IMG/VR virus record: IMGVR_UViG_2534681674_000009
From: a virus
Lineage: Duplodnaviria; Heunggongvirae; Uroviricota; Caudoviricetes
Direction: 5' to 3' (one strand)
DNA length: 24,457 bases
The position numbers were made by a program, and so were the translations under genes. Below the pieces are notes generated by a model. It was not told the origin of the DNA, made no database searches, and saw only the letters and a program-made list of their open reading frames with translations. Below are positions 3,649-16,516 of the stretch, in pieces (within the stretch, counting starts at the first letter, position 1; every line of letters begins with the position of its first letter).

Positions 3649-3661
3649 ACGGGATTTTTTT

Positions 3662-3937
3662 ATGTCGATGTACACAACCGCCCAGCTGCTGGCGGCAAAT
3701 GAGCAGAAATTTAAGTTTGATCCGCTGTTTCTGCGTCTCTTTTTCCGTGAGAGCTATCCCTTCACCACGGAGAAAGTCTATCTCTCACAAATTCCGGGAC
3801 TGGTAAACATGGCGCTGTACGTTTCGCCGATTGTTTCCGGTGAGGTTATCCGTTCCCGTGGCGGCTCCACCTCTGAATTTACGCCGGGATATGTCAAGCC
3901 GAAGCACTTAGCATGGCTTTCTGAGGCTTTCGTGTAG
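3662..3937 (+). pseudogene. E: Major capsid protein gpE, N-terminal fragment (interrupted after codon ~82 by the integrated element)
   Basis: MSMYTTAQLLAANEQKFKFDPLFLRLFFRESYPFTTEKVYLSQIPGLVNMALYVSPIVSGEVIRSRGGSTSEFTPGYVKPKH matches lambda E residues 1-82; after 3906 the frame reads 9 unrelated codons (LAWLSEAFV) and stops. Confidence 0.9.
3897..3906 (+). repeat. Left junction direct repeat (putative attL core) AGCCGAAGCA
   Basis: Identical 10-mer recurs at 16507-16516; phage-derived sequence ends here on the left and resumes there on the right. Confidence 0.65.
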
Positions 3938-4035
3938 TTGCTGGTTTTTACACTTAATCTTTTGATAATAAAGAATAAGTTTATCTGGTGCTTTCACTGA
4001 ATTTTCCTCGTTATCTGTGTGTTGCAATCATCTCT

Positions 4036-4055
4036 GTATTGCAGCTTGTATTGCT
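4036..4055 (+). repeat. Tandem GTATTGCAG / GTATTGC motifs (putative integrase arm-type sites, left arm)
   Basis: TGTATTGCAGCTTGTATTGC upstream of int; the same motif recurs in tandem at 16409-16432 near the right junction. Confidence 0.4.
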
Positions 4056-4231
4056 TTTTGGGGCTAAAAATGGCTGGCGAGAACAAACTGAGCGACAAAG
4101 CGCTTAAAGGATATCTGGGGAAACCCAGAGAAAAGCAGATCACCATTGCTGATGGAAAGGGGCTTTCTATTCGTGTGAGTACTAAAGGGTGAACCGCCCC
4201 GGGTTTCCTGGAGAGTATTTTATCTGTGAAC

Positions 4232-5122
4232 TCAGGCTGCCAGATCATTATTTCCGATGGAAGCATAATAAGCTTTTTCTGCTTCTGCCGGAGGAATATG
4301 GCCCAGCCTTTCCAGCAATCGTCGATTGTTATACCAGTCCACCCACGTTAGTGTGGCCAGTTCCACTTCTGTCCGGTTTTTCCAGCTATTACGGTGTATT
4401 ACCTCCGCTTTGTAAAGACCATTGATGCTCTCAGCCATCGCGTTGTCATACGAGTCGCCAGTACTCCCTGTTGATGCCAGTAATCCGGCTTCCTTAAGCC
4501 GCTGCGTGTAGGCCAGCGATACATACTGAGAACCTTTATCACTGTGATGGATTGTGCCGGACGGCCGACGGGCCCACAACGCCTGCTCCAGTGCATCCAG
4601 CACGAATGTTGTTTCCATGGATGATGAGACCTGCCATCCCACGATGTATCCGGCGAACACATCAATGATGAACGCCACATAAACGAAGCCCTGCCATGTG
4701 CTTACCCAGGTAAAATCAGCCACCCACAACTGGTCTGGACGTTCTGCCACGAACTGACGGTTTACGCGGTCGCATGCGGCAACGGCTTTCCGGCTGACGG
4801 TAGTGCGGACCTTTTTACCCCGGAGAACACCGGCAAGTCCCATAACTGCCATGAGACGTGCCACAGTGCATCTGGCCACTCTGATACCTTCCCGTAACAA
4901 CTGACGCCAGACTTTACGCACACCGTATACCTGGTGATTTTCATCGTATACGCGCTGTATCTCTTTCTTCAGCCAGTCATCGTGCTGCGCACGGGCACTG
5001 CGTTTATCCGGATGATGTCGCTGTTGCTGACAATGGTAATACGTTGACGGGGCAATATGCAGTTCGCTGCATACCGGTCCGACCCCGTACTGCTCACGCA
5101 GCTTATCCAGCAGTGGCATCAT
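4232..5122 (-). CDS. IS629-like transposase OrfB (DDE catalytic domain; normally made as OrfAB by frameshifting)
   Basis: [53 protein letters not shown]...[22 protein letters not shown]... matches recalled IS629/IS1203 OrfB. Confidence 0.9.
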
Positions 5123-5446
5123 TTTTCCAGAGGCGGTCGAACTCCGCCTTCGCAAAATAAGCGGAAGCCTGGCGAAGGATATCGTTACTGCGGCGCAGTT
5201 CACGATTTTCACGTTCCAGCTCTTTCAGACGCTGACGTTCAGCGCTGGTGAGCCCACCATCACCGCCCCCGGTATCCCGCTCATGCTGGCGAACCCAGAC
5301 ACGCAGAGTCTCCGGCGTACAGCCAATCTTTGGGGCAATGGAACTACGATTGCCGCCCACTGTGAGTCATATTCATCCTGACTTTCCAGAACCATACGAA
5401 TCGCCCGCTGACGGACTTCGGGGGAAAAACGAGTATTTTTAGTCAT
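5103..5446 (-). pseudogene. IS629-like OrfA, apparently frameshifted
   Basis: N-terminal [33 protein letters not shown] is in one frame (5225-5446) and the remainder [30 protein letters not shown]...[10 protein letters not shown] in another (5103-5360); junction near 5345-5350. Confidence 0.55.
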
Positions 5447-6620
5447 CCTGTTTACCTCTTTCTCAGGGAGTTTAGTCTCCAGGATTTCCGGGGCGGTTCA
5501 GGGGCTGTGAGCTTTGTTTTCTTCTACAGGTTAGCAGGTGGCCGGGCTGCTCCGGTCTGGCTAACGTTGGGTAAATATCCTGATATGTCACTCAAACAGG
5601 CAAGGGAAAAGCGCGACGAGTGCCGTGGTTGGTTGGCTGACAAACGTGATCCGCGTATCCAGATTAAGATTCAGGCTGAAGAACGCTTAAAGCCGGTTAC
5701 AGTGGAGGATGCACTAAATTACTGGTATGAAAATTACTGTAAGGTGCGTCGTAAAACTCATGCTGTAACGCTTGGCAGATTTCGAAAGCATATCTTTCCC
5801 TATATCGGTCATTTGCCCGTAAATGACACTCACCTATATGAATGGCTGGACTGTTTTGACCGAATTAAACGTAATGCACCAGTTATGGCGGCGTATGTTT
5901 TTTCTGACACTAAATTAGCTCTTCGTTTTTGTCGGGTACGCCAGTACGCGACGTGTGATGCTTTAAAGGATTTGCGCATGAGTGATGTGGGGCAGATTGC
6001 AGGTAAGCGGGATCGGGTTCTGGATGAAGCCGAACTCGGCCAGCTCTGGAAGGCAATTTTTGTCGAGCCTGATTTAAAACTAATGTCTGAATACACGCGA
6101 AAAATGTTTGTGCTTTGTACAGTATTTGGATGTCGAATGAGTGAAGCCCGATTATCAGAATGGAGCGAATGGAATCTCGAAAGTTGGGTTTGGACTGTAC
6201 CAAAAGATCACTCAAAAACTGGTGTTGAAATCGTCAGACCAGTACCTGAAATTCTACGACAGTGGGTAACGGATGTTCACGAAGAGACAAAACATACTGG
6301 TTATGTGCTGGGAAGTCTGCGAATTAGAGAAAGCGTAAGCAAGATTGGGGGGAAAATCGGTAAACGTTTGGGCCATGAAAAACAATGGTCACTACACGAC
6401 CTTAGAAGAACGCTATCTACTCATCTAAGTGATCTCGGTGTTGAATTTTATGTAGTAGAACAACTGTTAGGCCATGCGCTACCTGGCGTGGCAGGTGTTT
6501 ACAACCGGAGTAAGTTTATGGCTAAAAAACTGGATGCTCTGGAACTCTGGACTACATATCTCAATAGCATCGCAGGTGCTGATTCAAAAGTGACAATCCT
6601 CAAACAAAAGGTTGGTTAAC

Positions 6621-6848
6621 ATGAAAAAAATGGCAATTGTTGATAAAAAGGGTCTGGAGTACATTCCTAACATTGACCGAATGATCCGTGAGAAAGAATG
6701 TCGGGAGCTAACCACTCTTGCGAACAGCACACGCTGGAAGCTGGAGAAGGAAGGAAAATTTCCTAAGCGGATCAAGATTGGTTCCACTGCTGTTGCATAT
6801 CGTCTTTCAGAAGTGCAGGCATGGATTCGAGGTGAGTGGGTAGTTTAA
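6621..6848 (+). CDS. alpA: AlpA-like DNA-binding protein (putative excision/regulatory factor)
   Basis: Small basic ORF directly downstream of int with an HTH-like segment ECRELTTLANSTRWKLEKEGKFPKRIKIGSTAVAYRLSEVQAWI, typical of AlpA/Xis-like proteins next to P4-type integrases; ATG 6621 preferred over TTG 6612. Confidence 0.75.
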   Translation: MKKMAIVDKKGLEYIPNIDRMIREKECRELTTLANSTRWKLEKEGKFPKRIKIGSTAVAYRLSEVQAWIRGEWVV

Positions 6849-6874
6849 ATTATCTCAGAATAAAATATTATGAA

Positions 6875-6908
6875 TTACTGATTTGAGAATTTGTACTCAA
6901 ATCAGTAA
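6875..6908. terminator. Bidirectional hairpin between convergent genes
   Basis: Perfect 13-bp inverted repeat TTACTGATTTGAG ... CTCAAATCAGTAA with 8-nt loop, in an AT-rich spacer between the alpA-like (+) and membrane protein (-) genes. Confidence 0.55.
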
Positions 6909-6917
6909 TAACATTCT

Positions 6918-7454
6918 TTATAAGAGATTAAATCCAAATAAAGAGTAATCATATACCGGGGTGCATTGCATCCCACTGAATATGCTGATGTTTTTTTCTG
7001 TTTCTATCCTTTTTTCAATAAGTTGTTGTATATTTTTACAGTACAATTTGTGTGTGATGTTATTATCGTAAGCCTGATATAGCAACGTCAATGTTGATGC
7101 TATGAAACATGCAGAAAGAAAATGAACTAGTACATGTGAGCGTTTTTTGGTTGTCCATGATGCATTCGCTTGTGAAATATAAATCATTCTGAGAATGATA
7201 ATGATGATAGACAGTAACAGACCACTCAATAAAATAAGTATTGGGTTTGCGTATTTAATTAATGGTTGAGAGCAAAAAACTATTATAGCTCCTGTGACTG
7301 CGTATGAGAAAAAGGAGTAATTAAACTTCTTACTCCTTCTCTCAAGTATTTTAATTTCATCTTGTGTGGGGGTTTTAGATGCCTCTAATATAAGTTTATT
7401 AAATGTTTCTGTTATCTTGTTTTTTGTGTTTGTGGCTATTTTTTTTAGATTCAT
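6918..7454 (-). CDS. Hypothetical membrane protein (AT-rich accessory gene)
   Basis: 178-aa ORF with hydrophobic segments (YSFFSYAVTGAIIVFCSQPL, ILILLSGLLLSIIIIILRMIYI, VLVHFLSACFIASTLTLLY); base composition much more AT-rich than neighbours; no recognisable family. Confidence 0.55.
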   Translation of the reverse strand: MNLKKIATNTKNKITETFNKLILEASKTPTQDEIKILERRSKKFNYSFFSYAVTGAIIVFCSQPLIKYANPILILLSGLLLSIIIIILRMIYISQANASWTTKKRSHVLVHFLSACFIASTLTLLYQAYDNNITHKLYCKNIQQLIEKRIETEKNISIFSGMQCTPVYDYSLFGFNLL

Positions 7455-7804
7455 AGCATTCTAACTCCCTTAACTTATTTATTACTTTCTCTTTATGATA
7501 AGAGAGGGGAATGACTTGGTAAAGTGATTTGTCATTAATAATGATAATCCTTGCGATAAATATTTCTGCAAGTTATTTACCTGTTTGTTGCTATCTTGTT
7601 AAGCGTTGGGTGTGGTTTATGTTTGGAGCGACTTTATTTAATCGTGATTTTATGGATTTATATTTATATCCTGTAAGATAAGCGCATGTTAGTTCAGGAG
7701 TAGTGTCAGATAAAATTATTCGGAGTAGAACTACCTTTTCTGTTTATTGCCAGTATTTACATAGCAATGCGCCGTAGTTACTCACATCACGGCGCTGATA
7801 CTAA

Positions 7805-8110
7805 TTATTCAGATTCTTTGGCTTTACGCCGCTGGAGTTCTTCACGAGCGACGGCTACGAGTTGCCCGATTTCCTCCGCTGCCTTGATGCCGATTTGTTC
7901 GACCTTAGCTAAGGCATCCAGTGAAGACACGAGGGGATTTTCTCCGCTTCCTTCTGCCTGGCGGCGGGCGATTTCACCGCGCATGGCGGTTACGATAAAT
8001 CCGGCATTGCTTTCACCGTCCAGCTTAACGGATTCCATCCCTTGCATAACATCTAGTGGGACTCTGACAGTTGTCAGTTGTGATTTTGCGTTTTTGTTAG
8101 CCGTTGCCAT
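7805..8110 (-). CDS. Hypothetical protein, possible regulator (divergent from downstream operon)
   Basis: 101-aa ORF; sits head-to-head with the 8301+ operon across an intergenic region containing repeated operator-like half-sites. Confidence 0.5.
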   Translation of the reverse strand: MATANKNAKSQLTTVRVPLDVMQGMESVKLDGESNAGFIVTAMRGEIARRQAEGSGENPLVSSLDALAKVEQIGIKAAEEIGQLVAVAREELQRRKAKESE

Positions 8111-8300
8111 TTCTGAAACTCCTAATCATCGGTGTGTTTCAGTATACACAAAAAAAGAAATACAAAAAGCCTTGACGTGTGTTTCATGCGCTCATAACAT
8201 GAAACACACCGAAAGGATTGTTGAAATACAAAGAGCAACGCCCCGCAGTGCTGGGAACACATACGGGGCGTCTAACCAACAACGTAAACTAGGAGCCGTT
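8111..8300. promoter_or_regulatory. Divergent promoter/operator region
   Basis: TTGACG (8172-8177) then 17 bp then TAACAT (8195-8200); three copies of GTGTTTCA half-site (8133-8140 and 8179-8186 direct, 8200-8207 inverted), the latter two forming a palindrome over the -10; also inverted repeat GACGCCCCG...CGGGGCGTC at 8239-8273. Confidence 0.45.
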
Positions 8301-8498
8301 ATGGTTGCTGTAAATCATATACCACACCTTGTACACACACAAACGGCCTTTGTGTGGCGTTTTCTGGCACTGAGTGCCGGAGAATCTCAAATCATCCACG
8401 TAACCGCCTGGACGGAACGCGAAGCGCGTAGCCGTTGCCCGTCCGGTTGTGTTGCTGTATTCGCTGCAAAAATCCGCCAGGGAGTGAGTCATGCTTAA
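8301..8498 (+). CDS. Small hypothetical protein (possibly Icd-like)
   Basis: ATG at 8301 preceded by AGGAG (8291-8295); 65 aa MVAVNHIPHLVHTQTAFVWRFLALSAGESQIIHVTAWTEREARSRCPSGCVAVFAAKIRQGVSHA; family assignment is a weak recollection only. Confidence 0.45.
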   Translation: MVAVNHIPHLVHTQTAFVWRFLALSAGESQIIHVTAWTEREARSRCPSGCVAVFAAKIRQGVSHA

Positions 8499-8676
8499 AA
8501 CCTTCCGTGTATTTGCCCGAGCTGTTAACCCAATAGGCCACACAATTGGTATCGCTCAGAATGTGAAGGCTGTTAATGTTCAGACGGCTATTGCTGCGGT
8601 GAGAAGCGAATCATCAGAATATGGCTTATCACAAGTCATTATTTCAGCAGTGTATGAATTAAAAGAGGTGCATTAA
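8491..8676 (+). CDS. Small hypothetical protein
   Basis: 61-aa ORF whose start overlaps the preceding stop (translational coupling). Confidence 0.4.
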   Translation: MLKTFRVFARAVNPIGHTIGIAQNVKAVNVQTAIAAVRSESSEYGLSQVIISAVYELKEVH

Positions 8677-8834
8677 TGCAGGAAATCACATTACACGAAG
8701 CCGCTGAACGTGCGCACCAGACAGAAATTATTGCCGCCTTCTTGAGGTATACCCGAACAAAATTACAGATGCTGATATATCCGCACTGGCGAGCCTACTG
8801 GCGCGTCTTTCGGGAAGTGTCGCTAGTTTTTTGA
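8676..8834 (+). CDS. Small hypothetical protein (52 aa)
   Basis: ATG at 8676 overlapping the previous stop (TAATG), preceded by a strong RBS AGAGGTG (8664-8670); below the ORF-track length cutoff. Confidence 0.4.
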   Translation: MQEITLHEAAERAHQTEIIAAFLRYTRTKLQMLIYPHWRAYWRVFREVSLVF

Positions 8835-8866
8835 TTGAGGAAGAAAGTAAGCTGGTGGGGGATTAA

Positions 8867-9088
8867 ATGAATACAGAACGGGAAGTCTTTTTTAAATTGT
8901 TAGCATGTGCAGAAAGTTCATTAACTTTAAATAATTCAGCAAAAGCAATATTAAATATGTGGCTTGATTGCATAAATGACAATGAAGATGCAAATATTGC
9001 TTATGGCCTGTTGTCACTTATTGATGAAGCAGCAGAAAAACTCAATGACGCAATAAATAGTGCCCTGCTATCAAATAAGTCGAGTTAA
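8867..9088 (+). CDS. Small hypothetical protein (AT-rich)
   Basis: 73-aa ORF with GGGGGA RBS upstream; no recognisable family. Confidence 0.4.
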   Translation: MNTEREVFFKLLACAESSLTLNNSAKAILNMWLDCINDNEDANIAYGLLSLIDEAAEKLNDAINSALLSNKSS

Positions 9089-9105
9089 GTCGAGGAATAA
9101 ATAAT

Positions 9106-9405
9106 ATGGAAATGAAAAATTCTGGCTTTATTGCCAGCGGCCCCGCTCGGCCTGAATTTATGAACGGCGATATTTACCGCGATAAATACGGCGGCACGGT
9201 AACGATTAAAGGCGTGGCAGAACGGCGCATCACTTACCGTCGTGAGGGGTATAGCTATGACTGCGTGATGCCTGTTTATCAGTTCCGGCGTGATTTTTCC
9301 CTGGTATATGCCGCACCCCGCAGTAAGCCCATCAGCAGGGAAAAAGCGCGGGGAAACATCCAGAAAATGAAAAGCATGATTAACGCATTCAGGGGCAAAA
9401 AATGA
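9106..9405 (+). CDS. Hypothetical protein upstream of primase
   Basis: 99-aa ORF with GAGGA RBS; stop overlaps the primase start (ATGA). Confidence 0.5.
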   Translation: MEMKNSGFIASGPARPEFMNGDIYRDKYGGTVTIKGVAERRITYRREGYSYDCVMPVYQFRRDFSLVYAAPRSKPISREKARGNIQKMKSMINAFRGKK

Positions 9406-11153
9406 AACTGGCACCGAACTTAAAAAAACAGCCACGCGACAGACTGACAGAGATAATCATCTTTGCAGGTAGTGATGCGTGGAGCCATGCGAAAGAGTGG
9501 CAGGAATGGGCGGGTAAACATATTGCCGCCGACGATGTGCCGCCTGTCGTGTTGGCTGATGAGCAACTGAAAAACATCACCGATTACCGGATCATTGATG
9601 AAGATCGTCAGTGTGTGCGTGTTTACCGCGCAGGACATATCACAGAGCACAGCATGACGCAGATTGTTACGTTACTGGCTGTGGCTGGAGTGAAGACCGT
9701 ACACGAATACGCGGGGATTACTGACACCAGCCCAGTGGATTTATCCGACCAGTTGCCGCGACTCAAAGAGGAATGCGAGCGTGGGGAAAGCCTGGTGCTT
9801 AATCTTCCGACGAAGCAAAAGGCGCAACTTTCACAGATGGCAGACAGTGAGCGCGCGCAGCTGCTTGCCGAGCGCTTTGATGGCGTTTGTGTGCATCCGG
9901 AAAGTGAAATCGTTCACGTATGGCGCGGCGGGGTATGGTGTCCGATCAGCACAATGGAGCTGAGCCGCGAAATGGTGGCGATCTATTCAGAGCACAGGGC
10001 CACTTTCAGCAAACGCGTGATCAATAACGCCGTTGAAGCGTTAAAAGTTATTGCCGAACCAATGGGCGAGCCGTCCGGCGATTTGCTGCCGTTCGCCAAT
10101 GGTGCGCTTGACCTGAAAACGGGGGAATTTTCCCCGCACACGCCGGAGAACTGGATCACCACGCACAACGGCATTGAGTACACGCCACCAGCACCAGGGG
10201 AGAACATCCGCGATAACGCGCCAAACTTTCATAAATGGCTTGAGCACGCAGCCGGAAAAGACCCGCGCAAGATGATGCGTATATGTGCCGCGCTGTACAT
10301 GATTATGGCGAACCGGTACGACTGGCAGATGTTCATTGAGGCCACCGGAGACGGGGGAAGCGGTAAGAGTACATTTACCCATATTGCCACCCTGCTTGCT
10401 GGCAAACAGAACACCGTAAGCGCAGAGATGACATCACTCGATGATGCAGGAGGGCGTGCGCAGGTTGTCGGGAGTCGTCTTATCGTCCTTGCCGATCAGC
10501 CGAAATATACGGGGGAAGGCACGGGCATCAAGAAAATCACGGGAGGCGATCCCGTTGAAATTAACCCGAAATATGAGAAGCGATTCACGACGATAATAAG
10601 GGCGGTGGTACTGGCAACCAATAACGACCCGATGATCTTTACCGAACGGGCCGGAGGTGTGTCACGCCGTCGGGTGATTTTCCGGTTCGACAACATTGTA
10701 AGGGAGGACGAAAAAGACAAGGAATTACCGGAAAAGATAGCGGCAGAAATCCCCGTAATTATCCGCCGCTTGCTGGCTAATTTTGCTGACCCTGAAAAGG
10801 CACGGGCTTTATTACTGGAACAGCGTGACGGTGATGAAGCTCTGGCAATAAAGCAGCAAACGGATCCGGTTGTTGAGCTTTGCGCGGCGCTGGAGTTTCT
10901 GGAGGAAGCTCGTGGGCTAATGATGGGCGGTGGTGGTGACACCGTGAAGTACACGACCAGAAACAGCCTTTACCGTGTCTATATGGCCTTCATGGCATAT
11001 ACAGGAAAGGGGAAATGTTTGAGCGTGAATGAGTTCGGAAAGGCTATGAGGTCAGCGGCGAAAGTTTACGGATATGAATATATTACGCGAAAAGTTAAGG
11101 GAGTCACGCAGACCAACGCAACGACTACTGATGATTGCGATGCGTTTTTATAA
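9402..11153 (+). CDS. Primase-helicase, D5 / P4-alpha C-terminal-like (SF3 NTPase)
   Basis: 583-aa ORF with Walker A GDGGSGKST and Walker B-like hydrophobic run ending in D (RLIVLADQ); architecture resembles satellite/P4 replication initiators; immediately followed by iterons. Confidence 0.8.
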   Translation: MKLAPNLKKQPRDRLTEIIIFAGSDAWSHAKEWQEWAGKHIAADDVPPVVLADEQLKNITDYRIIDEDRQCVRVYRAGHITEHSMTQIVTLLAVAGVKTVHEYAGITDTSPVDLSDQLPRLKEECERGESLVLNLPTKQKAQLSQMADSERAQLLAERFDGVCVHPESEIVHVWRGGVWCPISTMELSREMVAIYSEHRATFSKRVINNAVEALKVIAEPMGEPSGDLLPFANGALDLKTGEFSPHTPENWITTHNGIEYTPPAPGENIRDNAPNFHKWLEHAAGKDPRKMMRICAALYMIMANRYDWQMFIEATGDGGSGKSTFTHIATLLAGKQNTVSAEMTSLDDAGGRAQVVGSRLIVLADQPKYTGEGTGIKKITGGDPVEINPKYEKRFTTIIRAVVLATNNDPMIFTERAGGVSRRRVIFRFDNIVREDEKDKELPEKIAAEIPVIIRRLLANFADPEKARALLLEQRDGDEALAIKQQTDPVVELCAALEFLEEARGLMMGGGGDTVKYTTRNSLYRVYMAFMAYTGKGKCLSVNEFGKAMRSAAKVYGYEYITRKVKGVTQTNATTTDDCDAFL

Positions 11154-11164
11154 AAAATGGCAAT

Positions 11165-11400
11165 GGTTATCTACCTTGTCTACCTGACTGAAATAAAATA
11201 CTTTTATTTCAATGTATTAATGCAGGTAGATAACTATTTTTCACTGTCTACCTGTTATCTACCTTATCTACCCATTTTTGTAGACAGGTAAGGAGACGGG
11301 TAGAGATGAGGTAGACAGCTATTTGGGGCTGTCTACCTCCCTGAAACCCGCGCCATTACTGGCCTGATAACTAATCAGGTAGACAAGGTAGACAAGGTGG
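11165..11400. repeat. Iteron cluster (putative origin of replication)
   Basis: At least ten copies of (T/G)TCTACC / GGTAGAC in both orientations (e.g. 11168-11185, 11247-11273, 11280-11318, 11331-11337, 11377-11397) around an AT-rich block (11190-11222), directly downstream of the primase gene. Confidence 0.7.
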
Positions 11401-11442
11401 TGGTGCACAAAAAACTTTTTAAACGAGGGGGTAAAAATAAAA

Positions 11443-11685
11443 ATGCACACATCAGGAAAACTGAACAAACATATAAAGCCACATTACCGCGCCCTTGATA
11501 TGGCTGAACACTGGCTAAGGGTGGCGATTAAGGCAATAGACCGCAACGCCGGGGAAGGATACGCGAAAGCACATCCCGAACTGATAAGCGCATTCATGAC
11601 AACGGCGGCTGCAAACTTTGCCACGCTGACCGAACGGGAGATTGCCGAAGCGGAGGAAGTGACAACCATCAATATTAAGTCCTGA
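11443..11685 (+). CDS. Hypothetical protein
   Basis: 80-aa ORF with GAGGGGG RBS upstream. Confidence 0.45.
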   Translation: MHTSGKLNKHIKPHYRALDMAEHWLRVAIKAIDRNAGEGYAKAHPELISAFMTTAAANFATLTEREIAEAEEVTTINIKS

Positions 11686-11696
11686 GAGCAGGCAGC

Positions 11697-12146
11697 ATGA
11701 CGGCGCAAATAGCAGCTTACGGGCGGCTGGTGGACGACCCACAGGTAAAACATACCAGCAAGGGAACACCCATGACACTGGCACGGATGGCGGTATCTTT
11801 GCCATGCAGCCAGGCAGATGACGGAACGGCGACGATGTGGTTATCTGTGCTGGCGTTTGGCAGACAAGCCGACACGCTGGCAAAGCATCACAAAGGCGAA
11901 CTCCTGAGCGTGGCGGGTAATATGCAGGTGAGCCAGTGGACTGGACAGAACGGTGAAACGCGGCAGGGCTGGCAGGTTATCGCAGACAGCGTAATCAGTG
12001 CGCGAACGGTGCGACCGGGCGGCAAAAAAGATCAACAGGGTCAGGCTACTGACGCACTGAACAGAGCAAAACAACAGGCAGATCAGCAAGGAAGCCATCC
12101 ACCAGTGGGAGATAATGAGCAATGGGGAGATGATATTCCGTTTTAA
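11697..12146 (+). CDS. ssb: Single-stranded DNA-binding protein
   Basis: 149 aa with OB-fold-like N-terminal part, Gly/Gln-rich linker and acidic C-terminal tip ending DDIPF, the hallmark SSB tail. Confidence 0.8.
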   Translation: MTAQIAAYGRLVDDPQVKHTSKGTPMTLARMAVSLPCSQADDGTATMWLSVLAFGRQADTLAKHHKGELLSVAGNMQVSQWTGQNGETRQGWQVIADSVISARTVRPGGKKDQQGQATDALNRAKQQADQQGSHPPVGDNEQWGDDIPF

Positions 12147-12163
12147 ATATTGCCAATAAAAAA

Positions 12164-12190
12164 GGCCGGAAAAAAAAATAAATTTTCCGG
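12164..12190. terminator. Hairpin after ssb (possible terminator)
   Basis: CCGGAAAA ... TTTTCCGG stem with A-rich loop; A/T-rich on both sides. Confidence 0.35.
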
Positions 12191-12365
12191 CATGCTACAT
12201 AAATCCAGACCAAAGGGAGTGAAGATATTAACACTAATTATCCGTGCTGAAGTTGTCATCCCAAAACTTTATACAACATTGCACTCGGTTGCATGTATTC
12301 GCATGACAAATATCGGTGATAGCATATATCCACAATTATTTTTAATGAATGCAAAGAGGATGCGT

Positions 12366-13406
12366 ATGGTTGATTTATATTCGCCTACCCAGCTTGTACA
12401 GGTGGTTAATGCTGTAGATGTACAAAAACAACTAAATGCGTTGTTTACCAGTTTGTTTTTTACTCGCTCGGTAATGTTTGAATCGCGCGATATTATTCTT
12501 GATACAATCGACGATCCAAATATCCCAATTGCAGCGTTTTGTTCTCCTATGGTGGGTAGTAAAGTTTCACGTGACGAAGGGTACGAATCAAAAACAATTC
12601 GTCCAGGCTATATGAAGCCGAAAAGCAGCATTGATCCAAATAAGTTAGCTGTGCGCCCTGCTGGTGTATCACCTGAGCAATACAATGCTTTTGGAGCGCG
12701 TAATATTAAAGTTAAACAGGCGATTGTAAATCAGGCTAAAGCTATTCGTGCACGTATTGAATGGCTTGCCGTTCAGGCAATCACAACGGGGAAAAATATC
12801 ATTGAGGGCGATGGTATTGAACGTTATGAGCTGGACTGGAATATTAAACCACAAAATATCATCACTCAGTCTGGCGGTGCTGAGTGGTCAGGTAAGGATA
12901 AAGAAACTTTTGATCCAAATGATGATATTGAGAGCTACGCAGAATTTAGTGAGGGCGTCACTAATATCATCATTATGGGCGGTAATGTATGGAAGAAATA
13001 CCGTTCATTCAGAGCGATAAAAGAGGCTCTGGATACCCGTCGTGGTTCTAATTCCGAACTGGAAACGGCCCTTAAAGACCTTGGTGATTCGGTGAGTTTT
13101 AAAGGGTATATGGGCGATGTTGCGATTGTTGTATACAGCGGGCGTTATACCGACGAGGACGGAACTGAAAAACATTTCCTTGATCCTGATTTGATGGTGC
13201 TTGGCAATACGGCTCTTCAGGGGATTGTCGCCTATGGCGGTATTCAGGATCCGGAGCTAATCCGAATGGGGCTGACTAAAGCCGAACTTGCACCGAAAAA
13301 CTATATTGTGCCTGGTGATCCGGCTATTGAATATGTGCAGACACATTCAGCACCACAGCCAATACCGGCCCGCATCAATCGTTTTGTTACCGTTCGCATT
13401 GGCTAA
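12366..13406 (+). CDS. Major capsid protein, lambda gpE homologue encoded by the element
   Basis: Start at ATG 12366 (RBS AAGAGG 12354-12359). Product aligns along its length with lambda E, e.g. ITQSGGAEWSGKDKETFDPNDDIESYA...RRGSNSELETALKDLGDSVSFKGYMGDVAIVVYSG vs lambda ITQSGGTEWSKRDKSTYDPTDDIEAYA...RRGSNSELETAVKDLGKAVSYKGMYGDVAIVVYSG; clearly a diverged paralogue, not a duplicate. Confidence 0.85.
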   Translation: MVDLYSPTQLVQVVNAVDVQKQLNALFTSLFFTRSVMFESRDIILDTIDDPNIPIAAFCSPMVGSKVSRDEGYESKTIRPGYMKPKSSIDPNKLAVRPAGVSPEQYNAFGARNIKVKQAIVNQAKAIRARIEWLAVQAITTGKNIIEGDGIERYELDWNIKPQNIITQSGGAEWSGKDKETFDPNDDIESYAEFSEGVTNIIIMGGNVWKKYRSFRAIKEALDTRRGSNSELETALKDLGDSVSFKGYMGDVAIVVYSGRYTDEDGTEKHFLDPDLMVLGNTALQGIVAYGGIQDPELIRMGLTKAELAPKNYIVPGDPAIEYVQTHSAPQPIPARINRFVTVRIG

Positions 13407-13415
13407 GGGGGAGCA

Positions 13416-13757
13416 ATGGCTACTCATTACACTGAACTCATGTCTGGCACTGAAGCACTGGTTACTACGCTGGGGATATTTTCAGCCAATAAAGGGGTAA
13501 TACCTGCGTTTACGCCACTGATGCAGGAAGATGCAACTGGTGCGCTAGTGGTATGGGATGGAACGAGCGCAGGCAAAGCGGTTTATGTTTCCGCTGTACA
13601 AATCGACACAGCGAAAAAAACACAGGCACAGGTTTATAAGACAGGTGTTTTAAATGTTGATGCTCTGAACTGGCCTGAGTCTGTAAGAGAACTGTCGGCA
13701 AAGGTTGCCGCGTTTGTTGGCTCAGGTATTTCTGTTCAGCCGCTGGCTCGTGTGTAA
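13416..13757 (+). CDS. Head decoration protein, lambda gpD homologue encoded by the element
   Basis: 113 aa; ...LVVWDGTSAGKAVYVSAVQ...YKTGVLNVDALNWPE...AAFVGSGISV parallels lambda D ...[19 protein letters not shown]...[15 protein letters not shown]...[11 protein letters not shown]; RBS AAGGGGGA. Confidence 0.8.
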   Translation: MATHYTELMSGTEALVTTLGIFSANKGVIPAFTPLMQEDATGALVVWDGTSAGKAVYVSAVQIDTAKKTQAQVYKTGVLNVDALNWPESVRELSAKVAAFVGSGISVQPLARV

Positions 13758-13768
13758 AGGGGGATACA

Positions 13769-14152
13769 ATGCAGAATGATTACAATGACCTTAAGCCAAT
13801 TGCCGAAATGATGTACCCGAATCCAGCTGTAGAGGAATTAAAAGCTATCGCTGACAAAATGTGTTTAAGCGAGCGCCTTGTTGATATGAATCAGGTGATG
13901 GAAATTACAACCCTGAGTCGGCGTACACTGCTAAACCTTGAGGCTAGTGGAGAGTTCCCGGAGCGTGTGCAGGTTACGGAAGGGCGTAAGGCCTGGTATT
14001 TAAGTGAAGTGATCGACTGGATAAATAATATTCCTCGCGCTTCTGAATATTGCCGCGTACCTGTCCCAAAAAAGCCAGATGCGGCGCTATGCCTCAAGAT
14101 TGAGCGTGTACGCCGCAATGCACGGGATGGTCGCTATAAGCTGATTGGTTGA
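13769..14152 (+). CDS. Second AlpA-like HTH protein
   Basis: 127 aa; segment MNQVMEITTLSRRTLLNLEASGEFPERVQVTEGRKAWYLSEVIDWINN resembles AlpA/MerR-type HTH; RBS AAGGGGGA. Confidence 0.6.
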   Translation: MQNDYNDLKPIAEMMYPNPAVEELKAIADKMCLSERLVDMNQVMEITTLSRRTLLNLEASGEFPERVQVTEGRKAWYLSEVIDWINNIPRASEYCRVPVPKKPDAALCLKIERVRRNARDGRYKLIG

Positions 14153-14194
14153 TGAAATTAGGGCCCGCTCTGGCTGGCGGGTCCTTTCCGGCGA

Positions 14195-14340
14195 TCTGAC
14201 AGGCTACGGGGCGTCAGGCGCGCGGGTTTTCTCTATTTATGAGCATTTTAAGGGGACTGGTGGTGGTTTTGTTGTTCGCTATATCTGTATGAATAATAAG
14301 AGAAAAATACAATCAATACACCAACCTGAAACAGTAATTA
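14195..14340 (+). other. cos site (cosN plus cosB-like region) of the element
   Basis: GACAGGCTACGGGGCGTCAGGCGCGCGGGTTTTCTCTATTTATGAGCATTTT closely parallels recalled lambda cos GACAGGTTACGGGGCGGCGACCTCGCGGGTTTTCGCTATTTATGAAAATTTT; lies directly upstream of a Nu1-like gene as in lambda. Confidence 0.65.
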
Positions 14341-14353
14341 AGTTGTGGTATCA

Positions 14354-14896
14354 ATGAAATTACACCTGATGAACAAAAAAAACATGGCAAAAAGTTGCCG
14401 TGTAAGCGCCACTGCGTTCGATAAGTGGGGAGTGATTCCCGTCGAGCGTAAGGGCCGTGAGGCGTTCTATGATGTTGCCAGTGTAATAGATAATCGGGTT
14501 AACAATGCAATCAGCCAGATTACAAACGAAACGGGCGATATTGATGACGATGAACTTTTACGCGTCAGGATCAGATTACTGACAGCACAGGCAGAGGCGC
14601 AGGAGCTTAAAAACGAGCGCGAACGCGGCGACGTTATTGATACAGAGTTTTGTATGTATGTTCTTTCCAAACTGGCGAGTCAGATTTCATCTATCATGGA
14701 CAGCCTGCCGCTTACCATGCAAAGGCGCTTCCCACAGATGACTCCGGCTATGCTGGATGGACTTAAAAAGGAAGTGGCTAAAGCCTGTAATGCCAGTGCC
14801 GGCGTTGCTGACAACCTCCCACAGATACTGGCTGATTATCTGATGGAAAGTACAGGAAACGTACCGGATAAGTTGCAGCTGAATAAGGATAAGTAA
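14354..14896 (+). CDS. Terminase small subunit, lambda Nu1-like
   Basis: ...RLLTAQAEAQELKNERERGDVIDTEFCMYVLSKLASQISSIMDSLPLTMQRRFP matches lambda Nu1 ...RLTRAQADAQELKNARDSAEVVETAFCTFVLSRIAGEIASILDGLPLSVQRRFP; start codon uncertain (ATG 14354, 14369 or 14384). Confidence 0.8.
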   Translation: MKLHLMNKKNMAKSCRVSATAFDKWGVIPVERKGREAFYDVASVIDNRVNNAISQITNETGDIDDDELLRVRIRLLTAQAEAQELKNERERGDVIDTEFCMYVLSKLASQISSIMDSLPLTMQRRFPQMTPAMLDGLKKEVAKACNASAGVADNLPQILADYLMESTGNVPDKLQLNKDK

Positions 14897-14907
14897 CGTA
14901 GTACGCT

Positions 14908-15183
14908 ATGACTGAATCCGAACTACTGAAAGTAATCTGCTATGCTGGTGGAGTCAGCCACCAGCATGACGAACAGGCCACGCAGCCGGGCAGTGTCACC
15001 GCTGAAAATTACGCTCGTGTGGTTGCTGAGGTTATGTGGCGTGACGGTATAGAACTGAACGGACAGGATTGCTTAGTCATCCGCACCAAAGTGCTGGCTA
15101 TACTGGCAGCTAGGCGGAGGCAGGGACAACGCCAGAACGTTGCATCGTACCAGTGGAAGAAGCCTGACAGACTGCGGCGATAA
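14908..15183 (+). CDS. Hypothetical protein downstream of terS
   Basis: 91-aa ORF; no recognisable family; weak RBS. Confidence 0.35.
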   Translation: MTESELLKVICYAGGVSHQHDEQATQPGSVTAENYARVVAEVMWRDGIELNGQDCLVIRTKVLAILAARRRQGQRQNVASYQWKKPDRLRR

Positions 15184-15337
15184 CTCTTTGATTTTCTCGA
15201 CGGCCCCAAAATGGGCCTTACCATAGCCAGCTAATAAATGAGCAAGCCTCAAAAGTGAGGTTTGTGGCCGTTTGGCCTATTCATATGCTAACTCGTTGAT
15301 ATTCCTGACGACGCAAATTTACGCCTTGTGGCTGGTA

Positions 15338-15363
15338 GTCGAATTGCAAATTTGCAACTCGAC
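15338..15363. promoter_or_regulatory. 26-bp near-perfect palindrome (putative operator)
   Basis: GTCGAATTGCAAATTTGCAACTCGAC, self-complementary except one position pair; intergenic between the terS module and the Abi-like gene. Confidence 0.35.
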
Positions 15364-15585
15364 TATGAAACTACAGGTAGTTTGGGTAGTAAAAGCAACA
15401 CACTGATTTTGGGGCTTCTTCGCGATACCTAATATTATGGTATCGGTGGAAGAGATATCGTTTCTCATAGGTTAGCACCGAGGGCGGAGTTCCGCCCTCA
15501 TCGAAAAATTGCTTACGAGTCGTCAAAATAAATTAATCGACTGAGTATAATGATTAACTAATTGCTCGTGTTACTTCATTATACG

Positions 15586-16347
15586 TTATTTCCCATCTTT
15601 AAGGTTTAACCAAGTGTTAATTAAAAAAAGAGCCATTGAGCCTGATAAATTTACTGCAAGTTCGGCATGCCTTGGGGATGGCTTAATTGATGAGCTGTTC
15701 GTTCCATGTGCATCACCGAGTTTATTACGAAGAGTACCTAACCCATTTACAACTGCAGAACAACCGCCGAGAATTTGTTTGAAGATATTTTCAGTATGTT
15801 GGTCGGCAGATAGGTTAAGTTCTTTTGAAAGAGTTTTATAAAGCTCTGACATTTCAATATTTTTATTATTATACTGAATGCCCATATCATCAAGAATGTG
15901 TTTGCAAACTGTTTCAAGAAGTGTTCTTGCGGAGGTTATCGCACCATCCGGATCTGTATGGCGCCGTTCAAGTGCTTTTATCCAAACGGCGTGGACTCCA
16001 TCCTCGTTAAACTTTCTTAATACATCAGATATGTCTTCATCCGCTGGAGCTTTATTTTTCCCTTCTAGATAGTCCAGCATCGGCTGAAATGCCTTATAAA
16101 TCAAATCTCTCCGGGGGGCATACTTTTCAGTCTTTTTTATAAATCCCCAAAATTCTTTTAGTGAGCGATTAGTTCTCACAAACTCTGGTAATAGCTGATG
16201 TAAAGGAGGATTTTGTAAGAAATATGTTCTTAGAAGCAAATAATCATTATTAGCTTCATCCTGGGCTCCTGTAGCTCTTGCAATTAGTATGTTTTGAAGC
16301 GCTACTGCGCGCTCTAGGTCATTTTGAAGGGTATCTATAATATTCAT
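15586..16347 (-). CDS. Abi-like protein with HEPN-type Rx4-6H motif (putative abortive-infection / defence effector)
   Basis: 253-aa ORF on the opposite strand at the element's right end; C-terminal LGTLRNKLGDAHG contains R-x6-H as in HEPN/Abi_C family proteins. Confidence 0.55.
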   Translation of the reverse strand: MNIIDTLQNDLERAVALQNILIARATGAQDEANNDYLLLRTYFLQNPPLHQLLPEFVRTNRSLKEFWGFIKKTEKYAPRRDLIYKAFQPMLDYLEGKNKAPADEDISDVLRKFNEDGVHAVWIKALERRHTDPDGAITSARTLLETVCKHILDDMGIQYNNKNIEMSELYKTLSKELNLSADQHTENIFKQILGGCSAVVNGLGTLRNKLGDAHGTNSSSIKPSPRHAELAVNLSGSMALFLINTWLNLKDGK

Positions 16348-16408
16348 AACAAATCTTTATTCACTTCATTTGTGGGTTGATAATTGAATGGTTTGTACAT
16401 TGATTTCT

Positions 16409-16432
16409 GTGTATTGCAGTGTGTATTGCAGC
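16409..16432 (+). repeat. Tandem GTGTATTGCAG repeats (putative integrase arm-type sites, right arm)
   Basis: GTGTATTGCAGTGTGTATTGCAGC, same motif as at 4036-4055. Confidence 0.4.
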
Positions 16433-16506
16433 ATAGCCATTCAGGTAAAGATTATGCTCTATTTTTCCTCTTATATCATTCACATACTTACACCATTGAC
16501 TCATGT

Positions 16507-16516
16507 AGCCGAAGCA
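16507..16516 (+). repeat. Right junction direct repeat (putative attR core) AGCCGAAGCA
   Basis: Identical to 3897-3906; downstream sequence TGAGGTGAATCCGCAGATGACC continues lambda E. Confidence 0.65.

What the first reader, a model, noticed from the sequence alone, without database searches (positions are those of the whole stretch)
6918..7454. Strongly AT-rich membrane protein gene between the alpA-like gene and the regulatory region
The ORF and its upstream 350 bp (7455-7800) are far more AT-rich than the rest of the element, suggesting separate acquisition. The product has hydrophobic, likely transmembrane, segments and no recognisable family. Its location matches where satellites commonly carry variable defence or exclusion genes.
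Basis: inference. Interest (0 to 1): 0.4.

Follow-up and report, generated by a model that had tools for sequence, protein, structure and literature searches.

The report
Satellite hotspot cargo: small membrane protein
A separately acquired, AT-rich gene for a small three-pass inner-membrane protein of an uncharacterised family sits in a swap-in/swap-out cargo slot of an E. coli phage satellite, where sister satellites carry anti-phage genes, so it is a reasonable but untested candidate for a new phage-exclusion protein.

Summary
ORF 6918-7454(-) encodes 178 aa at 31% GC, the lowest GC in the window, with three hydrophobic segments. It has no significant Pfam, PHROG, PADLOC, NCBIfam or PDB match.

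The element is a known kind: a helper-embedded PICI satellite inserted in the major capsid gene of a lambda-like prophage. The ORF, its own promoter-like site and about 305 bp of upstream DNA form a 915-bp cassette (about 6846-7760). Only 68 of 676 related E. coli genomes carry it. Sister elements hold TIR (PDC-S35), putAbiC, DUF2971 or other unrelated genes in the same slot.

The gene is real. All 24 copies examined are intact, with 0 nonsynonymous versus 7 synonymous changes outside one dimorphic patch (codons 82-118).

It belongs to a tiny family (about 10 clusters among 1.84 billion representatives). Members share a predicted N-in/C-out topology and conserved motifs, including two invariant cysteines, on the predicted periplasmic side. 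Other members lie in two more such satellites, as an opposite-strand gene in a phage head operon, beside a retron-XI RT and beside a type IV restriction enzyme.

Best reading (about 0.4): a constitutively expressed exclusion protein acting at the inner membrane, analogous but not homologous to P22 SieA. Function is untested.

The parts
6846..7760 (.). Cargo cassette: the segment that is swapped between related satellites (GC 0.31)
   Evidence: Homology to alpA-only relatives ends at query positions 240-246. Homology to ylcI-only relatives begins at query positions 1161-1164 of the query 6600-8200. The upstream 311 bp and the ORF each occur in 68 genomes. GC.
6918..7454 (-). CDS for the 178-aa protein, predicted N-in, three transmembrane helices, C-out
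   Evidence: All 24 copies examined are intact. Outside the variable patch there are 0 nonsynonymous and 7 synonymous changes between alleles. dN/dS is 0.2 against the L019 allele.
7101..7211 (-). Dimorphic patch, codons 82-118: end of TM2, predicted cytoplasmic loop, start of TM3
   Evidence: 29 nonsynonymous and 8 synonymous differences between two allele types (dN/dS 1.2, dS 0.38). The flanks are almost identical: 1/350, 0/69 and 0/228 differences. Alleles are listed.
6921..7073 (-). C-terminal domain, codons 128-178, predicted periplasmic. It holds invariant C139, Q143, F159 and C164 and the motif HDxYCxxxQ...EKNSxIFxxMxC
   Evidence: Alignments A2, A3 and A4. Charge distribution and cysteine counts across the family. 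AlphaFold helices 100-147 and 152-161.
7495..7523 (-). Sigma-70-like promoter candidate (TTTACC, 17 nt, TATCAT), about 40 nt upstream of the ATG
   Evidence: Consensus scan, 9 of 12 matches. This is a pattern match only; expression was not shown.
7465..7471 (-). Shine-Dalgarno-like AAGGGAG, 10 nt before the ATG
   Evidence: Read directly from the sequence.
6874..6909 (.). Perfect 14-bp hairpin between the convergent alpA and ORF178 genes, a likely bidirectional terminator
   Evidence: I3, 100% complementary. T-rich tails on both strands were read.
7524..7760 (-). Conserved AT-rich upstream DNA of the cassette; role unknown
   Evidence: Always linked to the ORF; 59 of the 68 genomes are at least 99% identical, and the lowest identity among the 40 records listed is 98.4%. 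It has fewer differences than the ORF (6/350 against 18/537). No Rfam match.
7769..7795 (-). GC-rich hairpin just after the ylcI-like stop codon. It belongs to the conserved flank, has no U-run, and could be a weak terminator
   Evidence: RNA fold of 7455-7804 on the minus strand (z = -3.2). It lies to the right of the cassette boundary.
7805..8110 (-). Flank: YlcI/YnfO-family small regulator-like gene, upstream of ORF178 on the same strand
   Evidence: NCBIfam NF041551, 2.7e-17. phrog_6522. RefSeq annotation.
6621..6848 (+). Flank: alpA, convergent with ORF178
   Evidence: Pfam Phage_AlpA, 3e-15. RefSeq start taken from L001.

Best explanation
Positions 6846-7760 are a self-contained cargo cassette. 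It lies in the alpA-proximal accessory hotspot of a helper-embedded PICI satellite, which is itself integrated in the major capsid gene of a lambda-like prophage.

The cassette carries its own sigma-70-like promoter and ribosome-binding site. It shares a hairpin terminator with the convergent alpA gene, so it is probably expressed while the satellite is quiescent.

The product is a 178-aa inner-membrane protein. Its basic N-terminal helix is predicted to lie in the cytoplasm, followed by three membrane helices. A roughly 50-residue C-terminal helical hairpin is predicted to lie in the periplasm and is probably stapled by a C139-C164 disulfide.

Every motif conserved across the family lies on the predicted periplasmic side. 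These are QPLxK[Y/F]xNP between TM1 and TM2 and HDxYCxxxQ...EKNSxIFxxMxC in the tail.

Most likely role: a superinfection-exclusion factor that blocks a step at the inner membrane or periplasm, such as phage genome entry. It would act on a conserved host or phage component and so protect the prophage-satellite composite from competing phages.

Shown: the anatomy, the cassette boundaries, the slot variability, purifying selection, and family membership and contexts. Inferred: topology, disulfide, expression and the exclusion function.
For: 1. Slot. Sister satellites with about 90-100% identical int/alpA carry TIR/PDC-S35, putAbiC, DUF2971 or other unrelated genes here. At least 15 unrelated families were found. 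The literature places PICI accessory and defence genes in this position (PMC10085698; PMC10111431).

2. The gene is real and constrained. 24 of 24 copies are intact. There are 0 nonsynonymous against 7 synonymous changes outside the patch.

3. Recurrent association with this slot. Three cap_E-site satellites (E. coli, Kosakonia L006, metagenomic L043) carry members only 34-36% identical, although their int/alpA are 88-95% identical. In all three the gene is on the strand opposite to int/alpA, in the same slot; in E. coli and Kosakonia it follows the small RHH/YlcI-like gene, which in L043 was not detected by the anchor search.

4. Signature of an independently expressed inserted gene (a 'moron') in most other contexts:
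- an opposite-strand gene inside a siphophage head operon
- 49 bp downstream of a retron type XI RT-protease and next to a DUF4238 gene
- next to a type IV restriction enzyme in an islet at ssrA
- members are AT-rich relative to their flanks in nearly every locus checked (the 2-kb contig L131 shows no contrast)

5. Topology and conserved periplasm-side motifs with exactly two invariant cysteines. The AlphaFold model has pLDDT 85.

6. The architecture and gene layout parallel P22 sieA: 164 aa, three transmembrane helices, inner membrane, own promoter behind the RHH gene mnt, convergent with gene 16.
Against: - There is no experimental evidence and no homology to any characterised exclusion or defence protein. 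hhalign probability is below 1% against P22 SieA and SieB and 0.1% against putAbiC. PADLOC gives no hit.
- Guilt by association rests on few loci. Some members lie in uninformative or housekeeping contexts (L008, L125).
- Within E. coli the variable patch lies on the predicted cytoplasmic side. A cytoplasmic sensor, as in abortive infection, would fit that at least as well.
- Promoter and terminator are consensus matches only.
- Topology and the disulfide are predictions.
Confidence: 0.4

Rival explanations
1. Abortive-infection membrane effector. The protein sits inert in the inner membrane. When a phage product is sensed through the cytoplasmic N-terminal helix or the variable TM2-TM3 loop, it oligomerises and depolarises or permeabilises the membrane, killing the cell before progeny are made.
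For: The same slot holds a putAbiC membrane protein and a TIR effector in sister elements. The only strongly diversified segment is the predicted cytoplasmic loop and its adjacent half-helices. One homolog lies 49 bp downstream of a retron-XI RT-protease, and retrons and similar systems often use small membrane effectors (established knowledge). There are weak sub-threshold hits to DUF4231 (2 of 16 members, E 0.021) and to Saf_2TM (1 of 16 members, E 0.038).
Against: The Pfam hits are below threshold and are typical of compositional matches between membrane proteins. Retron type XI is classified as a single-gene system (PMC7736814), and the other two Pseudomonas-type loci examined (L010, L011) have no RT nearby. 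The family-wide conserved motifs face the periplasm, not the cytoplasm. No partner or sensor gene is present in the cassette.
Confidence: 0.2
2. Orphan immunity or protection protein against a membrane-targeting bacteriocin or type VI secretion effector, carried as cargo because it protects the host in bacterial competition rather than against phages.
For: It is a small multi-pass inner-membrane protein with its own promoter, like the immunity proteins of pore-forming colicins (established knowledge). The Pantoea homolog lies just beyond a T6SS gene cluster. A Pseudomonas homolog lies about 3.5 kb from a pyocin S-type gene.
Against: No toxin gene lies next to any member. There are no hits to colicin-immunity families in Pfam. 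In Pantoea the immediate neighbour is a type IV restriction enzyme in an ssrA islet, not a T6SS effector. The satellite slot otherwise carries anti-phage-type genes.
Confidence: 0.1
3. Host-fitness or satellite life-cycle gene unrelated to defence. Examples would be an envelope or stress modulator useful in particular hosts, or a modulator of helper lysis timing (antiholin-like) or of particle release.
For: Many carrier strains in the listed hits are avian or poultry isolates, although this was not counted and may only reflect clonal structure. It is a three-pass membrane protein inside a prophage-satellite composite that must lyse to spread. One family member gave a weak holin/anti-holin PHROG hit (E 0.029).
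Against: It is present in only about 10% of related elements and is replaced by unrelated genes, so it is not a core life-cycle function. It faces away from the satellite's inducible operon. The holin hit involves 1 of 16 members and is not significant.
Confidence: 0.12
4. Silent or decaying horizontally acquired DNA: an ORF that is not expressed or has no function.
For: The DNA is very AT-rich, of the kind H-NS typically silences (established knowledge). The promoter is only a 9-of-12 consensus match.
Against: 24 of 24 copies are intact, with 11 protein variants all 178 aa long. There are 0 nonsynonymous against 7 synonymous substitutions outside the patch. Relatives at 22-36% identity conserve length, topology and motifs across genera.
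Confidence: 0.03

Closest known systems
Helper-embedded PICI (HE-PICI) at the lambda cap_E site (Tommasini, Mageeney and Williams 2023, PMC10111431)
   Same: The surrounding element matches. It has int plus AlpA, a dynamic zone, DUF4222 plus a D5-type primase plus SSB, and a late zone with its own capsid and decoration genes. It is inserted in the prophage major capsid gene between the decoration gene and FI.
   Different: The section of that paper read here (Gene content) describes the dynamic zone in terms of Bro-network proteins and immunity RNAs and does not mention this membrane-protein gene; the rest of the paper and its supplement were not searched. No C4/isrK-type RNA was found here. 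In this window the integrase is also broken by an IS3-family insertion.
P22 SieA superinfection-exclusion protein (Leavitt et al. 2024, PMC10883804)
   Same: Similar size (164 against 178 aa), three predicted transmembrane helices, an inner-membrane location predicted here, and expression as a resident-state inserted gene. The layout is also shared: own promoter, downstream of a small RHH-type regulator gene (mnt there, ylcI-like here) and convergent with the neighbouring operon.
   Different: No detectable sequence relationship (hhalign probability 0.7%). SieA's conserved motif FxRYPxEAxxFNK is predicted to be cytoplasmic and is absent here. This family's conserved motifs and cysteine pair are predicted to be periplasmic. 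Blocking of DNA injection has not been tested for ORF178.
Single-gene defence cargo in the same satellite slot: TIR/PDC-S35 and putAbiC (PF16872)
   Same: They occupy the same position between alpA and the ylcI-like gene. They are single genes exchanged as cassettes on a near-identical backbone.
   Different: They are unrelated in sequence and architecture (hmmsearch). ORF178 has no enzymatic or known effector domain.
Small membrane effectors of defence systems (SLATT/DUF4231, SAVED-fused 2TM, the retron Ec48 2TM effector)
   Same: Short helical membrane proteins with a cytoplasmic N-terminal helix. One homolog lies next to a retron RT.
   Different: Only sub-threshold, minority Pfam hits. This family has three transmembrane helices rather than two, plus a conserved periplasmic cysteine-pair domain. 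There is no signalling or sensor partner in the cassette.
Immunity proteins of pore-forming colicins
   Same: Small multi-pass inner-membrane proteins encoded by AT-rich, independently transcribed genes (established knowledge).
   Different: No Pfam match and no cognate toxin gene next to any member.

Membership tests
HE-PICI (helper-embedded PICI) - applies to the element, not the ORF | Tyrosine integrase plus AlpA at the left end, both oriented inward | tested here: met
   Pfam Phage_integrase and Arm-DNA-bind_3 for 5507-6619; Phage_AlpA, 3e-15, for 6612-6848.
HE-PICI (helper-embedded PICI) - applies to the element, not the ORF | Integration inside a late gene of a lambda-like prophage (cap_E site) | tested here: met
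   The element is flanked by the 5' and 3' fragments of the major capsid gene, between portal/S49/decoration and FI/tail genes.
HE-PICI (helper-embedded PICI) - applies to the element, not the ORF | Replication zone (primase/DUF5906, SSB) and a late zone with captured late genes | tested here: met
   D5_N plus DUF5906 primase at 9402-11153. SSB, major capsid, decoration and terS homologs are annotated or matched.
P22 SieA family | Sequence homology to SieA types A-C, including the motif FxRYPxEAxxFNK | tested here: not met
   hhalign of A3 against P22 SieA gives probability 0.7%. The motif is absent from the ORF178 sequence. There are no PHROG hits.
P22 SieA family | Inner-membrane protein of about 160 aa with three transmembrane helices | tested here: met
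   Prediction only: hydropathy, AlphaFold helices, and K/R distribution.
P22 SieA family | Blocks phage DNA injection; escape mutations map to ejection proteins | not testable with these tools
   Needs infection assays.
putAbiC (PF16872) and lactococcal AbiC/AbiP | Match to the family profile | tested here: not met
   No Pfam or PADLOC hit. hhalign against the putAbiC protein of the sister element gives probability 0.1%.
Known defence systems (PADLOC-DB v2) | Match to any of the 5027 defence-protein models | tested here: not met
   No hit at E <= 0.1 for ORF178, and none at E <= 0.01 for P0009, P0013, P0016 or P0018.
SLATT / DUF4231 / Saf_2TM membrane effectors | Match to the family profile above the gathering score | tested here: inconclusive
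   DUF4231 in 2 of 16 members (best E 0.021) and Saf_2TM in 1 of 16 (E 0.038), all below threshold.
Retron type XI accessory component | Consistent linkage to an RT-protease gene | tested here: not met
   Seen in only one locus, P. mandelii L009. Absent from the E. coli, Kosakonia, Pantoea and other Pseudomonas loci. Type XI is defined as a single gene.
Phage holins | Match to holin families; a short protein with a charged cytoplasmic C-terminus, next to an endolysin gene | tested here: not met
   No Pfam or PHROG holin hit for ORF178. One of 16 members has a weak hit (E 0.029). No lysis genes are nearby, and the predicted topology is N-in/C-out.
Pore-forming colicin immunity proteins | Match to the family profile and adjacency to a colicin gene | tested here: not met
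   No Pfam hit. No toxin gene is next to any member.

The most novel reading that the evidence does not exclude
ORF178 would be the first member of a new family of stand-alone phage-exclusion proteins carried by mobile elements. These would be three-pass inner-membrane proteins whose conserved, disulfide-stapled periplasmic hairpin blocks phage genome translocation, or alternatively triggers membrane collapse. The dimorphic TM2-loop-TM3 patch would set specificity or evade phage counter-measures. Helper-embedded satellites would use it to guard the prophage-satellite composite against competing phages.
Probability: 0.3. Interest if true: 0.6.

Novelty: new member of a known kind. Interest (0 to 1): 0.45.

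Why it matters
Satellite and prophage hotspots have been a productive place to find new anti-phage genes. This work delimits one such hotspot, between alpA and the ylcI-like gene of capsid-gene-embedded PICIs. It shows at least 15 alternative cargo families there, several of them unannotated.

ORF178 is a compact, single-gene, easily cloned candidate with features that can be tested directly: a periplasmic cysteine pair, a two-allele specificity patch and its own promoter. If it excludes phages it would add a membrane-level mechanism, and such mechanisms are still poorly represented among characterised defences. If it does not, the result is an ordinary cargo gene of unknown function in a known kind of element.

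Tried and rejected
- Structure from close homologs only. AlphaFold with six sequences gave pLDDT 44 and was unusable. Adding the distant relatives raised it to 85.
- Sequence searches. The PDB profile search found nothing. tblastn against 50,697 phage records found no match. Plasmids gave one weak, unannotated Pantoea hit in an uninformative context.
- RNA element in the AT-rich upstream DNA. There is no Rfam hit at E <= 1 over 6500-9200. The sense-strand fold has z = -3.2, but most of that comes from the hairpin after the ylcI-like gene. The antisense strand has z = -1.1. I did not pursue this further.
- Retron link. The homolog next to a retron-XI RT is a single case, and the classification paper lists no membrane partner. 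I rejected it as a defining association.
- DUF443. The hit is sub-threshold, and 4 of 16 members gave it; which members was not recorded. I treated it as a compositional match between membrane proteins.
- Relationship to the putAbiC gene that occupies the same slot, and to P22 SieA and SieB: none.

Full report
OBSERVATION

- GC is 0.313 for the ORF and 0.308 for 6849-7760. The rest of the element is 0.465 and the window 0.513.
- The 300-bp windows between 6751 and 7650 (0.297-0.337) are the lowest in the window.
- GC is equally low at all three codon positions.
- Hydropathy gives three membrane-length segments at about 46-66, 70-93 and 107-127.
- Nothing reaches threshold in Pfam (only DUF443, 19 bits against a cut-off of 26), PHROGs, PADLOC or NCBIfam.

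WHAT THE ELEMENT IS

Megablast against 5426 complete E. coli genomes shows that the window is E. coli DNA. The RefSeq annotation of an identical copy, strain 104 (L001), gives this gene order:
- portal, S49 protease, decoration protein, then the 5' fragment of the major capsid gene
- int, alpA, ORF178, a YlcI/YnfO-like gene, an icd-like gene, small ORFs, DUF4222, a D5-type primase, SSB, and the element's own major capsid and decoration genes, an HTH gene and cargo
- the 3' fragment of the major capsid gene, then FI and the tail genes

This is a helper-embedded PICI at the cap_E site, as described by Tommasini, Mageeney and Williams 2023 (PMC10111431). In this window an IS3-family element (4190-5499) interrupts int at about codon 39.

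THE ORF IS PART OF A SWAPPABLE CASSETTE

- 676 genomes match some part of 6600-8200, but only 68 match most of it.
- Matches through alpA stop at query positions 240-246, which is window 6839-6845, the end of alpA. Matches through the ylcI-like gene start at query positions 1161-1164, which is window 7760-7763.
- The 311 bp upstream of the ORF occur in 68 genomes, once each; 59 are at least 99% identical and the lowest identity listed is 98.4%. The ORF itself also occurs in 68 genomes.
- The mobile unit is therefore about 6846-7760, that is, ORF plus promoter region plus terminator.

Inside the cassette, on the minus strand, I find:
- a sigma-70-like site at 7523-7495 (TTTACC, 17 nt, TATCAT)
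- an AAGGGAG Shine-Dalgarno sequence 10 nt before the ATG
- a perfect 14-bp hairpin at 6874-6909 between the convergent alpA and ORF178 genes

A GC-rich hairpin without a U-run follows the ylcI-like stop at 7769-7795, in the conserved flank. Read-through from that gene is therefore possible as well. These are pattern matches; expression is not shown.

WHAT OTHER ELEMENTS CARRY IN THE SLOT

Among E. coli elements at the same capsid-gene site with near-identical int/alpA I found:
- a 291-aa protein with a CAP12/Pycsar-type TIR domain (PADLOC PDC-S35, 7e-67; L015)
- a putAbiC protein (PF16872, 3e-16; L016, L017)
- a DUF2971 protein (L005)
- an unannotated 305-aa protein (L014)

More distant PICIs, in tqsA and next to tRNA-Pro, have a 109-aa ORF or nothing there.

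I then surveyed 78 IMG/VR loci with close AlpA relatives. In most of them a small YlcI/RHH-like gene on the opposite strand bounds the slot (64 of 78; in the rest the first conserved gene found was SWIM- or icd-like), and the slot is 652-2253 bp long. It holds at least 15 mutually unrelated protein families of 120 aa or more:
- ORF178 family, 23 loci
- DUF2971, 12 loci
- TIR, 7 loci
- putAbiC, 7 loci
- a 449-472-aa family, 6 loci
- a 395-aa family, 5 loci
- a 241-aa family, 4 loci
- a 180-195-aa family with a PD-(D/E)xK-like motif (judged by eye), 4 loci
- several smaller families

The ORF178 count is inflated because the loci were ranked by similarity to this window's AlpA. De Sousa et al. 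[quoted passage not shown] The second position corresponds here to the AbiJ-like gene at 15586-16347, which is replaced by DUF262 plus HEPN genes in strain 104.

THE GENE IS REAL

- 24 copies (the window, two RefSeq loci and 21 viral contigs) give 11 protein variants. All are 178 aa and uninterrupted.
- Against the L019 allele, dN/dS is 0.2, from 8 nonsynonymous and 10 synonymous changes.
- Against the second major allele (L020) the differences are strikingly localised. Codons 1-81 and 119-178 have 0 nonsynonymous and 7 synonymous changes. The flanks differ at 1/350, 0/69 and 0/228 positions. Codons 82-118 have 29 nonsynonymous and 8 synonymous changes (dN/dS 1.2, dS 0.38).
- The raised dS suggests that the patch was imported by recombination from a diverged allele. 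The ratio near 1 suggests relaxed or diversifying selection there.
- The 68 genomes fall into identity bands of 34 (at least 99%), 11 (95-99%) and 23 (90-95%).

THE FAMILY

The word-indexed search found only E. coli proteins, in 8 clusters. A full HMMER scan of 1.84 billion representatives found 10 proteins at E <= 1e-3. Nine are new and most are 148-175 aa, full-length matches at roughly 22-33% identity (two are shorter, 113 and 42 aa).

- Alignments show invariant P71, C139, Q143, F159 and C164.
- The shared motifs are QPLxK[Y/F]xNP between TM1 and TM2 and HDxYCxxxQ...EKNSxIFxxMxC in the tail.
- In the enterobacterial-type members the N-terminus is basic (6-11 K/R); the Pseudomonas-type members have shorter, less basic N-termini. 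The TM2-TM3 loop has up to 5 K/R and almost no acidic residues. The tail is about neutral and has two cysteines in all but one member, which has three.
- By the positive-inside rule this gives N-in/C-out. All conserved motifs then lie on the periplasmic side, and the cysteine pair is a likely disulfide. This is inference.
- AlphaFold with the 14-sequence alignment gives pLDDT 85.2 and pTM 0.55, with helices 3-26, 31-68, 71-94, 100-147 and 152-161.
- No fold or sequence relative has a solved structure.

WHERE THE RELATIVES LIVE

- Kosakonia sp. S29 (L006) and a metagenomic viral contig (L043) are two more cap_E-site satellites. Their int is 88-91% and alpA 92-95% identical to this one, yet their family members are only 34-36% identical to ORF178. 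The gene is again on the strand opposite to alpA, in the same slot. In Kosakonia it directly follows a 59-aa RHH/YlcI-like gene.
- P0015 is an opposite-strand gene inside a siphophage head operon, between the Mu-F-like gene and a 394-aa head gene.
- In Pseudomonas mandelii the gene lies 49 bp downstream of a retron type XI RT-protease (PADLOC 1e-174) and beside a DUF4238 gene.
- In Pantoea it lies beside a type IV methyl-directed restriction enzyme (3e-153), in an islet between a T6SS cluster and ssrA.
- The other contexts are uninformative or housekeeping.
- Members are AT-rich relative to their flanks in nearly every locus, for example 0.27 against 0.48, 0.29 against 0.52 and 0.33 against 0.49.

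MECHANISM

I favour exclusion acting at the membrane, with about 0.4 confidence. The reasons are:
- the hotspot context
- the signature of an independently expressed inserted gene: own promoter, opposite strand, AT-rich
- probable expression in the resident state
- conserved motifs that face the periplasm

The closest analogue is P22 SieA: 164 aa, three transmembrane helices, inner membrane, and a block to DNA injection (PMC10883804). Its gene also sits behind a small RHH regulator gene (mnt), has its own promoter and is convergent with the neighbouring operon. There is no homology, however: hhalign gives 0.7% against SieA and 0.3% against SieB.

The main rival is an abortive-infection membrane effector, at about 0.2. 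It is favoured by the fact that the only hypervariable segment is the predicted cytoplasmic loop, and by the membrane Abi-like and TIR genes that occupy the same slot elsewhere. Toxin immunity, an unrelated fitness or life-cycle role, and a silent ORF are less likely. The reasons are given under the rival explanations.

VERDICT

The element type and the idea of satellite defence hotspots are already known. The protein family is uncharacterised and rare. It is a concrete, testable candidate and no more than that. I classify it as a new member of a known kind, with interest 0.45.

Noticed in passing
window 3661-3906 and 16509-17297, enclosing about 3950-16500: The whole satellite is inserted inside the major capsid gene of a lambda-like prophage. 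The 5' and 3' capsid fragments flank it, between the portal/S49/decoration genes and the FI/tail genes. This is the helper-embedded PICI configuration published in 2023.
   Followed up: yes
window 4190-5499: An IS3-family insertion sequence (orfA/orfB on the minus strand, 99.5% identical to copies on many plasmids) interrupts the satellite integrase at about codon 39, with a 4-bp overlap at the junction. The satellite probably cannot excise, which would also leave the helper's capsid gene permanently split.
   Followed up: partly
window 14241-16495, including 15586-16347 (-): There is a second variable cargo slot at the right end. Here it holds a terS-like gene, a 91-aa ORF and an AbiJ-like protein (PADLOC AbiJ, 2e-21). 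Strain 104 has DUF262 plus HEPN genes instead.
   Followed up: partly
window 7101-7211 (codons 82-118 of ORF178): Two sharply different alleles of a 37-codon patch (29 nonsynonymous and 8 synonymous differences) sit inside an otherwise almost identical cassette. This could be a recombination import or local diversifying selection. The patch lies on the predicted cytoplasmic side.
   Followed up: partly
window 7524-7760: The roughly 240 bp of AT-rich DNA upstream of the candidate promoter is better conserved than the ORF (6/350 against 18/537 differences to L019). It is always linked to the ORF. Its role is unexplained and it has no Rfam match.
   Followed up: partly
window 8129-8223: In the divergent regulatory region there is a perfect 13-nt inverted repeat (TCGGTGTGTTTCA / TGAAACACACCGA), a direct repeat GTGTGTTTCA at 8132 and 8177, and a 26-nt imperfect palindrome. 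These could be operator sites for the YlcI-like protein.
   Followed up: no
L009 6303-8447 (Pseudomonas mandelii): A retron type XI RT-protease gene is followed after 49 bp, on the same strand, by a member of the ORF178 family. Type XI is listed as a single-gene system with no known effector partner.
   Followed up: partly
L129/L130 8001-8486: A family member (P0015) sits alone on the opposite strand inside a siphophage head-morphogenesis operon, between the Mu-F-like gene and a 394-aa head gene. Its GC is 0.33 against 0.49 for the locus.
   Followed up: partly
They include families of 449-472 aa, 395 aa, 241 aa, 363-370 aa and 467 aa, a 275-aa plus 180-aa pair, and a 180-195-aa family with a PD-(D/E)xK-like motif. 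They form a pool of candidate defence genes.
   Followed up: no
window 12150-13757: The satellite encodes its own major capsid and decoration homologs. A related satellite's capsid protein is about 43% identical to the C-terminal part of the helper capsid protein whose gene the satellite interrupts.
   Followed up: no
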